A model generated the notes under the pieces. The model was given only the letters and a program-made list of their open reading frames with translations. It was not told the origin of the DNA and made no database searches. DNA of 64,000 nucleotides, taken from assembly GCF_009914755.1 (NCBI RefSeq), contig NC_060928.1; one strand, 5' to 3'. Within the stretch, counting starts at the first letter, position 1. Each line of letters opens with the position of its first letter. This DNA is from the human T2T-CHM13v2.0 reference genome, Homo sapiens. Positions 38,001-42,039 of the stretch are shown here, piece after piece. The translations under genes were made by a program, and so were the position numbers.

Positions 38001-40870
38001 TACTAGCCTCCTTGGTACCTCATCGCCTTAGAATTGTCCAGCCTGCCTTGCCAGAGTAGTCTAAGAACTTTCCCTGACCTTTGTTAGTTTATCATTTCAA
38101 AATTTTTTTAAAATAAAAAAACAATTACAAGTAAGATAAATCTAACACTCAAAATAACCCTGTTAGAGAGGCAGAACAGATATTAGCATTCTTATTTTAT
38201 TTTATTTTATTTTTATTTATTTATTTTTTTGCAATTAACTTGTACTTTATTTTGAAGTTGTGACCGGAAAGTTGTTTTAAAGTCTGTCTTTAAACTTACA
38301 AATATTATGTCAAATTGCTCCTAAGAGAGGATCAGTAGAGATTTAGTTCTTATAGTATTTCCTCAATTATATTTGGCAAATTAGATTTTCAAAACAAGAG
38401 TTTAACTTGTTATTAATTCTTCATGTTTACATACTTAAACCTCAGGTAGAAAAGTATTACAAGCTATCAGTGGCGTCTGCAATATAGGTGGGAAAGGTGA
38501 GTGCAAAGAATAACACATATTCTATATTAACAGTAAACATAGCTATTTCTGTTCTCCCTCAGCTACCAAAAACTGTCTTAAGCCTCCAGATTTAAAACCG
38601 CTGGGTTCATTCACTCATTCAGCCATTTATTTTTGTGAGCATCTCTTAGGCAGTCATGTGCTATGCTAATCCTATCTGACTCTTCCCTCTCCTTTGTCCT
38701 TCAAACCCCGTTAGTGGCCAAGTCCCATTAATTTGGGCATGTCCCACTTCTCCTCTTTCCAAATTTCTGAAGTATAGGTCAAGTCCTCATTAACCACTGA
38801 ATATGCACCAAATGGAAGATTATGCAGTCATTAAAACCACTCATAAAAAGTATACAACATGAAGAAAATCATTCAAGTAAAAAGAACAGAAAACTGTACA
38901 AAATATTATATAATCACATCCATGTAAAAAAAGAATTTGGCATGGAAAAAGATGAAGAAAATAACATACTAAGAGGATCTCTGGTGGACAGGTACTTTGC
39001 CTTTACGTTACTGCATTTTGCAAATTTCCCGTAATAAGCAGTTATTATTCTAGAAGAAAATATAAATGAGCTTTATTTTTAAAACTTACTATTTTAGTTA
39101 GATAACAAATTATTCCTGAGGTTCAGAACTGTATATCAGAAATAACCAAAATAAACACAAGCATGCAGCTAATTCTTTAACCTAATTCCTTAAAAACTAA
39201 AAGGTGCTTTTACCCATGCCTCTTACTGCATTTCCACATGCCTAGAAAACCTCTCCTCTACAATGTTCCAGTGAGACTCCGATGTCAGCTTTCATAAAAT
39301 AAGTTGTTCTTACCAACTATTCCACATTATTTTTAAAACTTCAGTGATCTGCTTTCTCCTAAACTCTAATTCTCATTTTTCCTTCCAAAGCATCCTAGAT
39401 TTGCCTTTTCCTATTACCACTGGTACCCACTGGTACCTGCAATCCTCTTTTCTCTAGGAATCTACCCTTAATTCTAGTACAAAACTAATCTTTAAACACT
39501 GCTTTCATAAAATCACTTGTCTTTCCGAAATGTGCAAGAGCTTCCACTTGACTCAAATCTAAGCCTATTGTTGAACCACAAATCTCCACTCGACCTTACA
39601 TCTTATTTCTTCAAACCAGGCAGAACTACACTGTTCCTTATATTTAAACCATGCCTACTCTGTTTTCATTGTGCTATTCCCAATTTTCCATGTAAAATGT
39701 CCTTCTTCTGGCCCCTGTTAATCTAAAGGCCAAGCTCAAGGCCCACTCCAAGTCCTCCAATCATCTCTTTAAGTATTCCAGCCTATACTCATCTCTCTTC
39801 TGATTCCCTGTTGCACTTACAGTTAGTATCACAAAGTGTAACAATTGTTCTGTGACTATTGTGTATAGATTGGTTTTGTTTCCACAAATAAGATACTAGA
39901 CAAATAAGGTACCAGAAAGCAGAGACCAACAGACCCAAGGAAAACGCTAGACACATAAACAGTTAATACTAAATGAATAATTTTTTTCTACAGTCAAAAT
40001 ACTAATGCTCCAAACCATTTTTAAGTCGTCTTATTTGAAGTTATGTGAGCCAAAAAGTAAATCTGTCTCACATTTTATTTTTATCCTGCCAAAATTTAAA
40101 GTCTATAACTTGGTAGAAAAAAACAATCGGACAAGAAAGTTTAATTTTCCTCTCACTTAATTTTATCTGGTAAAACCAGGACTTCAGGAATAAAGTAGAA
40201 CTGTACATTTCTCCCATCTCTTCTGCTCCTTTCAGAAGTATCTCCAACTCAGGAGATATGGAAAGTACCTTCTTTTCTTAAATTATATGGTAATATTTTT
40301 TGTCTGTTACAAAAATAATAAAAAGACATGCTCAACACATAATTAACCATATGACTATAAGTCTTTTTGATCAACTCAGGAAATAATTCTTGAACTACTT
40401 TTTGTTCAGAGAAAAAGTGCAGGATCTAGCGAAGTAATGTGATTGCTCAGGGTATCACTGACCATGCCCAGTTGTTCCTATTCTTCTTTCCTTTCCCAAG
40501 TTCGTCAAGTGTCTCTGAGGACTCAGTCAAGTGTCTCTGAAGATTTACCCTTCCCATTATTCTACCAAACCTAAACCTAAATTCAGCCCAACTGGAGACA
40601 TTAAATTCTCTAGGTTTTCAAGGGTCACAGCATTAAGAGACTAGACAGCCTTGAGATAAGTACCAAGTTTATATAACATGAGTTAATAAAATAAATGGTC
40701 ACAAGGACTCTTCCATTCAGTGTAGATTAACAACTATTTGCACACAGGCTTAAGCAGGACGAGCAAAGTGGAAAAATATTTCGCTAGTAGTATTTGTCCG
40801 TGTCCCAAGAAAATCTAGAAAAGAACATCTTTTTAATTGACATGTCAATAAATATAAACTACTATATTAT

Positions 40871-41425
40871 TTATAATGTTAAGCTACCTGAAGCATGCCT
40901 CCCCTGATTCTGTGGCATTCTTTGGAAGAGATCATGGTTGTATTCATAATATCTGTAGTCTTCATGTGCACGATCTCCAAGTGGCCGCTTTCTCTGACCA
41001 TCAACAAAATTGTCTGAATAATAATATCGGGAACCAGAGTCTCCATTTTCAACAGCAAAACTAACTTCCGTTACAAATGACTGAGAAGAACCATACTCTC
41101 TAGGGACATCTGCTAGACTTCTGGCAAGATAAGAAGGTGCAGATAATCTGTTGCTTTCTCTTCTCATTATTTTATGAGGTGTTCTTTGAATTGGAGTTCT
41201 AAGGAAACTCTGGTTTCTTGAAACTACTCCATCTCCAGAAGTTGAAAAGGCATTAGGGCTTGAATCTGGAAGACAGATATCAGTTCGTCCTGGAATTTTT
41301 GGACCATGCTGGATGAATGAAGGCATAAGATTCCGAAGCAGAGGCGACGTCTCCTTCTTCACGTACTTCCCCTGCACCTCGGCCGGCTTGGACACTTCGT
41401 TTTTGGTTTTCTGTCGGGACAGCAT
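40871..41425 (-). CDS. Intact 184-aa ORF of the SAV1 retrocopy (N-terminal region only, no WW or SARAH domain)
   Basis: MLSRQKTKNEVSKPAEVQGKYVKKETSPLLRNLMPSF...MPQNQGRHASG|SLTL*; GAAGGATGC start context; no frameshift or internal stop. Translation unproven. Confidence 0.55.
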   Translation of the reverse strand: MLSRQKTKNEVSKPAEVQGKYVKKETSPLLRNLMPSFIQHGPKIPGRTDICLPDSSPNAFSTSGDGVVSRNQSFLRTPIQRTPHKIMRRESNRLSAPSYLARSLADVPREYGSSQSFVTEVSFAVENGDSGSRYYYSDNFVDGQRKRPLGDRAHEDYRYYEYNHDLFQRMPQNQGRHASGSLTL

Positions 41426-41730
41426 CCTTCTCGACCAGGCCCGAGGCCGCGCTGAACTGCCTCGCTAGGGCTCCGCGCCGGGCGCCGGCCGTCTCCGCCG
41501 CCACCTCCGCCGCCACCTCCGCCGGCGCCGCCGCCTCCTTCCCTCCGGAGCCGCCGCCTCCGCCGCTGCCTGTCCGGAGCCTGGGGTCGCCCGCAGGGAC
41601 TGCCGCATGTTCAGGGCGCTAAACGCGCCGGCCGCCGCTCAGTCGCTGGTCACTTCCTTCCCGGAAGTCGGCCCGCTCTGCGACGCTGCTCGGGGACCCC
41701 TTGAGGAAAGCCCAGCGACGCCGGGCCAGC
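41335..41730. promoter_or_regulatory. CpG-island-like segment carried by the SAV1 retrocopy
   Basis: Dense CpG/GCC repeats in an otherwise AT-rich window; ETS cores ACTTCC 41652-41657 and CCGGAAGT 41661-41668. Confidence 0.7.
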
Positions 41731-42039
41731 GCATTCTTATTTTATGTATGAGCAAACTATGGAATGGAAAAGAGATTATGAGTTATTACTTGATTTGATT
41801 TGCCCTAAGTGTTTTTTAAACGTATGGATTTAGCGCCAACATTTAAAAAGAAGGTATATTTTAATTAAAAATCAGGAATTGATTTAATTTAAAATTTGGC
41901 TCCTCTTACAGGAAGATCTGGCAAGAGTTAGCGTGCAGTTCTACATTGTGACAATTCATGAGAGCTAAGGACTGGCTGTCTCTTGGGACAAATAGGCTTT
42001 CTTGAGTCTGGTAAGTGCTCCACTTGATGCTTGCTTCCA

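What the first reader, a model, noticed from the sequence alone, without database searches (positions are those of the whole stretch)
38186..41745. SAV1 retrocopy that fossilises an intronic-polyadenylation isoform
Seen: a 3530-bp insert between perfect 15-bp TSDs (GCATTCTTATTTTAT) with AATAAA, a 15-nt spacer and an A-tail, the hallmarks of L1-mediated retrotransposition. SAV1 coding similarity runs uninterrupted through the GC-rich to AT-rich change near 41332, where I recall intron 1 sits, so intron 1 appears removed. Similarity stops at CAG|GTAGCT (40888/40887), followed by about 2.66 kb of intron-like DNA with old L2/MIR relics up to the poly(A) signal. Established: weak 5' splice sites favour intronic polyadenylation. 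Inference: the template was a mature SAV1 RNA cleaved in intron 2. The insert would be germline evidence of a truncated SAV1 isoform and would pinpoint its cleavage site.
Basis: partly seen in the sequence, partly recalled or inferred. Interest (0 to 1): 0.82.

Follow-up and report, generated by a model that had tools for sequence, protein, structure and literature searches.

The report
SAV1 retrocopy of an intron-polyadenylated transcript
A 3.5-kb piece of DNA upstream of the glycophorin E gene is a reverse-transcribed copy of a shortened SAV1 messenger RNA that ended inside intron 2, a tidy but not unprecedented kind of processed pseudogene.

Summary

- **Insert and target site.** Window 38201-41730 (minus strand) is a 3530-bp insert between perfect 15-bp target-site duplications. 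The same target is unoccupied, in single copy, in two paralogous glycophorin repeat units.
- **Match to SAV1 on chr14.** The insert matches exon 1, then exon 2, with the 2253-bp intron 1 precisely removed. It then continues without a break through the first 2667 nt of intron 2 (about 20.2 kb long) at 98% identity.
- **3' end.** Similarity stops 15 nt after an AATAAA, at a CA. The parent has no A-run at that point. The retrocopy carries a 30-nt A-rich tail there.
- **5' end.** One extra G, absent from both parent and target, fits a copied cap.
- **What remains unshown.** I could not test whether this RNA is a regular SAV1 isoform or a one-off premature cleavage product. The "weak 5' splice site" claim is only partly borne out.
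- **Side findings.** The CpG-rich 5' end of the copy holds the annotated starts of a GYPE alternative transcript and of lncRNA LOC101927636. A published "inter-chromosomal SAV1;GYPE fusion" is probably a cis transcript of this locus.

The finding is sound but belongs to a known kind, so interest is moderate to low.

The parts
41731..41745 (.). Target-site duplication, the copy next to the 5' end of the insert
   Evidence: Perfect 15-nt repeat. The same 15 nt occur once at the empty paralogous sites.
41730..41730 (-). Extra G at the 5' end of the insert, present in neither the parent (C at that position) nor the target. It fits a reverse-transcribed cap.
   Evidence: alignment of the 5' end. 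The cap reading is inference; a single C-to-G substitution is not excluded.
41332..41729 (-). SAV1 exon 1 copy: 5' UTR and the first codons, 72% G+C, CpG observed/expected 1.06
   Evidence: Matches chr14:44874016-44874401 with 97.4% identity and one 12-nt GGC-repeat length difference.
40888..41331 (-). SAV1 exon 2 copy, joined directly to exon 1
   Evidence: Matches chr14:44871322-44871762 with 98.9% identity and one 3-nt in-frame insertion.
38231..40887 (-). Copy of the first 2667 nt of SAV1 intron 2, contiguous with exon 2 (composite terminal exon)
   Evidence: Matches chr14:44868655-44871321 with 97.97% identity, K2P 0.0207. Only 2 places in the genome match, the window itself and chr14.
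38246..38251 (-). AATAAA poly(A) signal, 15 nt upstream of the end of similarity
   Evidence: Present in both copy and parent. It is the fourth AATAAA in the intron piece; two ATTAAA also precede it.
38201..38230 (-). Degenerate untemplated poly(A) tail
   Evidence: The parent has unrelated, non-A-rich sequence at this point.
38186..38200 (.). Target-site duplication, the copy next to the A-tail
40871..41425 (-). Open frame of 184 codons: the SAV1 N-terminal part plus GSLTL read from the intron, then stop. No WW or SARAH domain.
   Evidence: Relative to the parent there are 6 replacements, 0 silent changes and one inserted codon. An open frame is expected by chance in 76% of simulations.
37855..41674 (-). 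Annotated first exon of a GYPE alternative transcript. It starts 56 nt inside the retrocopy, reads through its poly(A) signal and tail, and ends at a donor GAG|GTAAGT.
   Evidence: Hub annotation table. The donor at 37855/37854 and the acceptor AG|G at 35053 were checked.
41703..41821 (+). Annotated first exon of lncRNA LOC101927636. It starts antisense, 28 nt inside the 5' end of the retrocopy.
   Evidence: Hub annotation table. The donor GT at 41822 was checked.

Best explanation
An L1-mediated (target-primed) retrocopy of a capped SAV1 RNA. Intron 1 had been spliced out of that RNA. The exon 2 donor was not used, and the transcript was cleaved and polyadenylated at an AATAAA site 2667 nt into the roughly 20.2-kb intron 2. 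This is a composite-terminal-exon intronic polyadenylation product.

The copy inserted 3.25 kb upstream of GYPE exon 1, after the GYPE repeat unit had separated from its two paralogues. The date is roughly between the orangutan and gorilla splits.

Shown: the anatomy, the parent match, the removal of intron 1, the untemplated tail and the empty paralogous sites. Inferred: L1 as the enzyme source, the cap origin of the extra G, the date, and that the template RNA was present in germline or early-embryo cells.
For: - TSD: perfect 15 bp, 0 of 100 shuffles reach 2 copies.
- Parent match in three colinear blocks: exon 1, exon 2 and intron 2. The last two are contiguous on chr14, and the 2253-bp GT-AG intron 1 is missing.
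- 3' end: similarity ends at CA, 15 nt after AATAAA. Parent downstream sequence is U/GU-rich (GTTTTC, GTATGTC) with no A-run at the breakpoint. The nearest A7 run lies about 30 nt further on and is not in the copy.
- Empty sites: both flanks (1500 bp each) have paralogues at chr4:147340004/147340021 and chr4:147461305/147461322. These carry a single copy of the target, 14 of 15 and 15 of 15 identical.
- Nick site: the target reads TTATTTTAT/RT on the primer strand, T-rich as L1 endonuclease sites are (the consensus is recalled).
- Timing: copy-to-parent K2P is 0.0207 in the intron part, against 0.025-0.038 between the paralogous flanks. This fits insertion after the duplication.
- Intron context: intron 2 is large, about 20.16 kb by my placement of exon 3. 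This fits the published trend for composite terminal exon sites (PMC3708835, passages read).
Against: - No transcript evidence was available that this site is used today or was used regularly.
- The RNA passed five earlier canonical hexamers: ATTAAA at 51 and 741, AATAAA at 807, 1821 and 2267.
- There is no UGUA in the 100 nt upstream of the signal (read).
- The intron 2 donor is not weaker than the intron 1 donor by U1 duplex energy.
- The extra 5' G could be a substitution.
- The TSD boundary next to the A-tail is ambiguous by a few bases.
Confidence: 0.92

Rival explanations
1. Same retrocopy, but the template was a rare, accidental premature cleavage product that escaped U1 protection. It was not a regularly made SAV1 isoform, so the copy says little about SAV1 regulation.
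For: - Only one such copy exists.
- The site is the sixth canonical hexamer in the intron and lacks an upstream UGUA.
- The donor is not strikingly weak.
- The library holds no paper describing intronic polyadenylation of SAV1. The search for SAV1 with 'intronic polyadenylation' gave 1 paper, irrelevant. The search for SAV1 with 'alternative polyadenylation' gave 12, none on this by title.
Against: Retrotransposition samples RNAs roughly by abundance (established knowledge, recalled), and the site has a canonical AATAAA, a CA cleavage dinucleotide and a U/GU-rich downstream stretch. The only other SAV1-derived copy in the genome is an old 5'-truncated 3'-UTR copy on chr2, so the canonical mRNA has not been copied much more often.
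Confidence: 0.45
2. Internal priming: reverse transcription began on an A-rich tract inside an unspliced SAV1 pre-mRNA, not on a true poly(A) tail.
For: An A7 run lies about 30 nt downstream of the breakpoint in the parent.
Against: The copy does not contain the 27 nt between the breakpoint and that run. The breakpoint sits at CA, 15 nt after AATAAA, and the parent sequence there is not A-rich.
Confidence: 0.02
3. DNA-level duplication of part of the SAV1 locus, or a template-switch chimera of two separate RNAs (a spliced mRNA and an intron fragment).
For: The copy contains 2.66 kb of intron sequence.
Against: - Intron 1 is precisely removed at its GT-AG borders.
- The copy has a TSD, an A-tail and empty paralogous sites.
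- Exon 2 and intron 2 are joined exactly as in the genome, so one RNA suffices.
Confidence: 0.02

Closest known systems
L1-mediated processed pseudogenes, and specifically partially processed (intron-containing) retrocopies
   Same: TSD, A-tail, loss of an intron and an unlinked position. Intron-containing retrocopies are a recognised class. The review PMC5470649 (passages read) cites Soares 1985, Baertsch 2008 and Zhang 2014 for "partially processed retrogenes".
   Different: The retained intron sequence here is not an unspliced internal intron. It is the 3' end of the RNA, ending at an intronic poly(A) site, so exons 3-5 are absent. RefSeq annotates only the 738-bp exonic part (40885-41622) as the pseudogene, not the full 3530-bp insert.
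Composite-terminal-exon intronic polyadenylation isoforms (IgM, CstF-77/CSTF3 intron 3)
   Same: An unused donor upstream, a poly(A) site inside a large intron, and a truncated coding region (PMC3708835, passages read).
   Different: For SAV1 no transcript evidence was seen here. The only witness is the retrocopy. The donor is sub-optimal but not clearly weak.
Retrocopies that inherited a parental promoter
   Same: Carelli et al. 2016 (PMC4772013, passages read) estimate that about 3% of expressed retrocopies inherited a parental promoter carried within the copied RNA. Here both annotated transcript starts (41674 minus, 41703 plus) lie inside the copied CpG-rich SAV1 5' end.
   Different: Promoter activity was not measured here. 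It rests on the annotation and on CpG preservation. The transcripts made are a GYPE variant and an antisense lncRNA, not a stand-alone retrogene.
Processed pseudogenes used as fossils of past transcript variants (Shemesh et al. 2006, PNAS; recalled, not read)
   Same: The idea that a retrocopy records an alternative RNA form of its parent.
   Different: I found no paper in the library that joins retrocopies and intronic polyadenylation. The search for 'retrocopies' with 'intronic polyadenylation' gave 0 papers. The search for 'processed pseudogene' with 'intronic polyadenylation' gave 10, none on this by title.

Membership tests
L1-mediated retrocopy (processed pseudogene) | Flanking target-site duplication | tested here: met
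   Perfect 15 bp, 0 of 100 shuffles give 2 copies.
L1-mediated retrocopy (processed pseudogene) | Untemplated poly(A) tail at the 3' end | tested here: met
   A 30-nt A-rich tail that is absent from the parent.
L1-mediated retrocopy (processed pseudogene) | Loss of parental intron(s) at exact splice borders | tested here: met
   Intron 1 (2253 bp, GT-AG) is removed. Intron 2 is not spliced because the RNA ended inside it.
L1-mediated retrocopy (processed pseudogene) | Pre-insertion empty site with a single copy of the target | tested here: met
   Two paralogous repeat units on chr4 carry the unoccupied site. Orthologous sites in other primates could not be tested.
L1-mediated retrocopy (processed pseudogene) | T-rich/A nick site of L1 endonuclease | tested here: inconclusive
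   The site TTATTTTAT/RT is T-rich and compatible, but it is not the exact TTTT/AA, and the consensus is recalled.
Intronic polyadenylation, composite terminal exon | Exon and downstream intron contiguous in the RNA, with the donor unused | tested here: met
   The exon 2 and intron 2 blocks abut on chr14 and in the copy.
Intronic polyadenylation, composite terminal exon | Canonical signal 10-30 nt upstream of the cleavage site, with no genomic A-run | tested here: met
   AATAAA, then 15 nt, then CA, with U/GU-rich sequence downstream.
Intronic polyadenylation, composite terminal exon | Independent transcript 3'-end evidence (3'-seq, ESTs, long reads) | not testable with these tools
   No expression or poly(A)-site database was on hand.
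Intronic polyadenylation, composite terminal exon | Large intron with a weak 5' splice site (a statistical trend, not strictly defining) | tested here: inconclusive
   The intron is about 20.16 kb. The donor CAG|GTAGCT departs from consensus at +4 and +5. Its U1 duplex energy is -7.7, against -11.8 for consensus and -6.2 for intron 1. No MaxEnt score was computed.
Retrocopy with inherited parental promoter | Transcription start inside the copied sequence | tested here: inconclusive
   The annotated starts at 41674 (-) and 41703 (+) lie within the insert (hub table). The splice sites of those exons are canonical. No CAGE data were available.
Retrocopy with inherited parental promoter | CpG island kept free of methylation decay | tested here: met
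   CpG observed/expected is 1.06, against 0.29 in the flank. In the exon 1 copy, 49 of 55 parental CpGs are kept and 2 are lost by transition. In the intron copy, 9 of 15 are kept and 4 are lost by transition. Fisher p = 0.017. Polarity was not established with an outgroup.

The most novel reading that the evidence does not exclude
The intron 2 site marks a regulated, germline-abundant truncated SAV1 isoform of 183 residues without WW or SARAH domains. Its retrocopy arrived with a working piece of the SAV1 CpG-island promoter. That piece now acts as an ape-specific bidirectional promoter with two outputs: GYPE-linked transcripts that still carry an open 184-codon SAV1-like frame, and the lncRNA LOC101927636. 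An islet eQTL for that lncRNA co-localises with an HbA1c association signal.
Probability: 0.1. Interest if true: 0.6.

Novelty: new member of a known kind. Interest (0 to 1): 0.35.

Why it matters
- **A testable site in a tumour suppressor.** The copy pinpoints, to the base, a cleavage site in intron 2 of a Hippo-pathway tumour suppressor gene (T2T chr14:44868655). It predicts a two-exon SAV1 RNA encoding the N-terminal 178 residues plus GSLTL. That prediction can be checked directly in 3'-end and long-read data.
- **Corrected annotation.** The annotated pseudogene is 738 bp, but the insert is 3530 bp.
- **Origin of two annotated transcript starts.** It gives an evolutionary origin for a GYPE alternative first exon and for lncRNA LOC101927636.
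- **A likely false fusion call.** It offers a simple explanation for a Sanger-confirmed "inter-chromosomal SAV1;GYPE fusion" (PMC6435891). That is a caution for fusion callers near young retrocopies.

None of this changes the understanding of retrotransposition or polyadenylation.

Tried and rejected
- One search aligned the wrong end of locus L002, because the locus is stored in chr14 plus orientation. That alignment is meaningless and was redone.
The cis-transcript reading of that fusion is therefore inference.
- Literature searches for SAV1 intronic or alternative polyadenylation, for retrocopies with intronic polyadenylation, for 'SAV1-GYPE' and for LOC100420464 gave nothing on topic. Subscription journals and supplements were not covered.
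- Coding constraint on the copy is rejected as unsupported. All 6 coding substitutions are replacements (P = 0.17 under random change), and an open frame is expected in 76% of simulations.
- No MaxEnt splice score was computed. A U1 duplex energy was used instead.
- Other primate genomes are not held, so the date rests on divergence alone.
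Full report
**1. The observation**

The 15-mer GCATTCTTATTTTAT occurs exactly twice in the window, at 38186-38200 and 41731-41745. The chance expectation is 0.04, and 0 of 100 shuffles gave two matches (repeat family D8). The 3530 bp between them (38201-41730) read as follows on the minus strand:

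- a G+C-rich stretch;
- a reading frame that starts at 41425;
- the sequence CAG|GTAGCT at 40888/40887;
- 2.66 kb of A+T-rich DNA;
- AATAAA at 38251-38246;
- 15 nt ending in TTGCA;
- a 30-nt A-rich tail;
- the second copy of the repeat.

**2. The parent locus**

The window's own assembly could be searched.

- The A+T-rich 2657 nt (38231-40887, reverse complement) match only two places in the genome. One is the window itself. The other is chr14:44868655-44871321 on the minus strand.
- The 843 nt upstream of it gave 46 matches. One is the window itself.
- Two are on chr14: query 400-843 at 44871322-44871762 and query 2-399 at 44874016-44874401.
- The other 43 are short matches (41 to about 100 nt, 75-90% identity) to the GGC-rich repeat in the 5' UTR.

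The chr14 block 44871322-44871762 abuts the intron match directly, so exon 2 and the start of intron 2 are contiguous in both places. The 2253 bp between the two exon blocks are missing from the copy. In the parent those 2253 bp begin with GTGAGT and end with TTGTAG.

Global alignments gave these identities:

| Part | Identity | Substitutions | Gaps |
|---|---|---|---|
| Exon 1 | 97.41% | 10 in 386 | one 12-nt gap |
| Exon 2 | 98.87% | 5 in 441 | one 3-nt gap |
| Intron 2 piece | 97.97% | 54 in 2655 (K2P 0.0207) | three gap events |

To place exon 3, I translated the chr14 sequence downstream of exon 2. I recognised the WW-domain frame and later the C-terminal frames, using short recalled motifs. 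The acceptor CCCGTAG|GTATTGGG keeps the frame and puts the start of exon 3 at chr14:44851159. Intron 2 is therefore about 20.16 kb, and the copy ends 2667 nt into it. This exon placement is my inference, not an annotation.

**3. The 3' end**

In the parent the sequence runs ...CAAAATAAAGTACAAGTTAATTGCA and then TACGTTTTCAGATTCAAGTATGTCATTAAAAAAATAAG. An Alu follows. The copy is identical up to TTGCA and then switches to its A-tail.

- The breakpoint is a CA, 15 nt after AATAAA.
- The parent has no A-run at the breakpoint, and its downstream sequence is U/GU-rich.
- The A7 run about 30 nt further on is not in the copy.

Internal priming is therefore excluded and the tail is untemplated. Against a strong site, the RNA had passed two ATTAAA and three AATAAA earlier in the intron. 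There is also no UGUA in the 100 nt upstream of the signal (read).

**4. The 5' end**

After the repeat, the copy begins G-CTGGCCCGGCG. The parent has C before CTGGCCCGGCG. The extra G belongs to neither parent nor target. It fits reverse transcription of the cap, a phenomenon known for L1-made copies (recalled). A substitution is not excluded.

The RefSeq pseudogene row starts at 41622, which is 108 nt inside the insert. If that row reflects the 5' end of the reference mRNA (inference), the template RNA began upstream of it.

**5. Empty sites and age**

Each 1500-bp flank has two paralogues on chr4 at 96-97% identity.

- In both paralogues the two flanks are separated only by the target sequence: 147340004/147340021 and 147461305/147461322.
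- The alignment shows a single copy of the target, 14 of 15 and 15 of 15 identical, with nothing inserted.
- The first paralogous site lies about 3.2 kb beyond the annotated end of GYPB. This mirrors the position of the insert relative to GYPE exon 1.
- The second is presumably the GYPA unit. The gene order is recalled and is not in the table.

Flank divergence between units is K2P 0.025-0.038. Copy-to-parent divergence in the intron part is 0.0207. The copy therefore entered after the units had separated. On recalled genome-wide divergences (human-gorilla about 1.6%, human-orangutan about 3.1-3.4%), 2.07% places the insertion between those two splits. This is a rough estimate and was not tested in other genomes.

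**6. Verdict on the interpretation**

I put the reading [quoted passage not shown] at 0.92.

What is not shown is that the RNA was a regular isoform.

- The library holds no paper describing intronic or alternative polyadenylation of SAV1.
- The intron is large. This fits the published trend that composite-terminal-exon sites sit in large introns with weak donors (PMC3708835, passages read).
- The donor departs from consensus at +4 and +5.
- Its U1 duplex energy (-7.7 kcal/mol) is nevertheless no worse than that of the efficiently removed intron 1 (-6.2). Consensus is -11.8.

I give about even odds between "regular isoform" and "rare premature cleavage product".

The genome holds only one other SAV1-derived copy. 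It is an old, 5'-truncated copy of the canonical 3' UTR at chr2:208146079-208147967, 78-87% identical. It lacks the Alu now present in the parental 3' UTR and ends at the parental ATTAAA site. Exon 3 has no second copy.

**7. What the copy does now**

The frame inherited from SAV1 is open for 184 codons. The predicted parental short form has 183, and both end ...RHASGSLTL. Relative to the parent there are 6 replacements, no silent change and one inserted codon. Random change gives an open frame in 76% of simulations and six-of-six replacements in 17%. There is no sign of coding constraint.

The 5' 399 nt have 72% G+C and CpG observed/expected of 1.06. The neighbouring 400 nt have 37.5% and 0.29.

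| Region of the copy | Parental CpGs kept | Lost by transition |
|---|---|---|
| Exon 1 copy | 49 of 55 | 2 |
| Intron 2 copy | 9 of 15 | 4 |

The difference is significant at Fisher p = 0.017. Polarity was not checked with an outgroup. The pattern fits an island that has stayed unmethylated in the germline.

According to the hub's annotation, a GYPE alternative first exon spans 37855-41674 on the minus strand, and lncRNA LOC101927636 starts at 41703 on the plus strand. Both starts lie inside the copied SAV1 5' end.

- The exon borders are canonical: GAG|GTAAGT at 37855, AG|G at 35053, and GT at 41822.
- The copy probably brought a piece of the SAV1 CpG-island promoter that now fires in both directions. 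About 3% of expressed retrocopies are reported to have inherited a parental promoter (PMC4772013, passages read).
- I rate this at about 0.6. It rests on annotation and CpG preservation, not on expression data.

**8. A published consequence**

PMC6435891 (section with Table 1 read) lists "SAV1;GYPE" among 24 novel fusion transcripts confirmed by RT-PCR and Sanger sequencing. It classes the fusion as inter-chromosomal.

A transcript that starts in this 97-99% identical SAV1 copy and splices to GYPE exons 3 kb downstream would look exactly like that. The junction coordinates are in supplements I could not open, so this is inference.

LOC101927636 is also reported as one of the strongest islet eQTL genes, co-localising with an HbA1c signal previously assigned to FREM3 (PMC6531807, passages read).

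**9. Novelty and score**

The pseudogene is annotated, but only for its 738-bp exonic part. Its full extent, its intronic-polyadenylation origin and its link to the two transcript starts were not found in print. Subscription journals and supplements were not covered.

Intron-containing retrocopies and the use of retrocopies as records of transcript variants are known ideas (PMC5470649, passages read; Shemesh 2006, recalled). This is therefore a clean new member of a known kind. Interest is 0.35.

Noticed in passing
window 41674 (-) and 41703 (+); 41332-41730: Both annotated transcript starts (a GYPE alternative first exon and lncRNA LOC101927636) lie inside the copied CpG-rich SAV1 5' end. That stretch has kept CpG observed/expected of 1.06. 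It is likely a bidirectional promoter brought in by the retrocopy, and it is absent from the paralogous GYPB and GYPA units, which have empty sites.
   Followed up: partly
window 34843-41674 (-): PMC6435891 reports a Sanger-confirmed 'inter-chromosomal' SAV1;GYPE fusion transcript. A cis transcript from this retrocopy spliced to GYPE exons would explain it. The junction coordinates are in supplements that were closed.
   Followed up: partly
L024/L028/L030 = chr2:208146079-208147967 (+): A second, much older SAV1-derived copy. It is a 5'-truncated copy of the canonical 3' UTR, 78-87% identical and broken up by later insertions. It lacks the Alu now present in the parental 3' UTR and ends at the parental ATTAAA site with a degenerate A-rich stretch.
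   Followed up: partly
L002:1160-1455 (chr14, about 45 nt downstream of the intronic cleavage site): An Alu in sense orientation sits just downstream of the parental poly(A) site. I could not tell whether it was there when the retrocopy was made, or whether it affects use of the site.
   Followed up: no
window 41500-41530 (-): The copy has one more 12-nt unit of the GGC-rich tandem repeat in the SAV1 5' UTR than the parent in this assembly. This is probably repeat-length drift.
   Followed up: no
window 41703-42010 (+): LOC101927636 is reported as a very strong cis-eQTL gene in human islets, co-localising with an HbA1c GWAS signal assigned to FREM3 (PMC6531807). Because it lies in the glycophorin cluster, an erythrocyte-related explanation of the HbA1c signal seems worth considering.
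   Followed up: no
window 40885-40887: The RefSeq pseudogene row extends 3 nt past the exon 2 end. SAV1 exon 3 and intron 2 both begin with GTA, so the mRNA alignment runs on by chance.
   Followed up: yes
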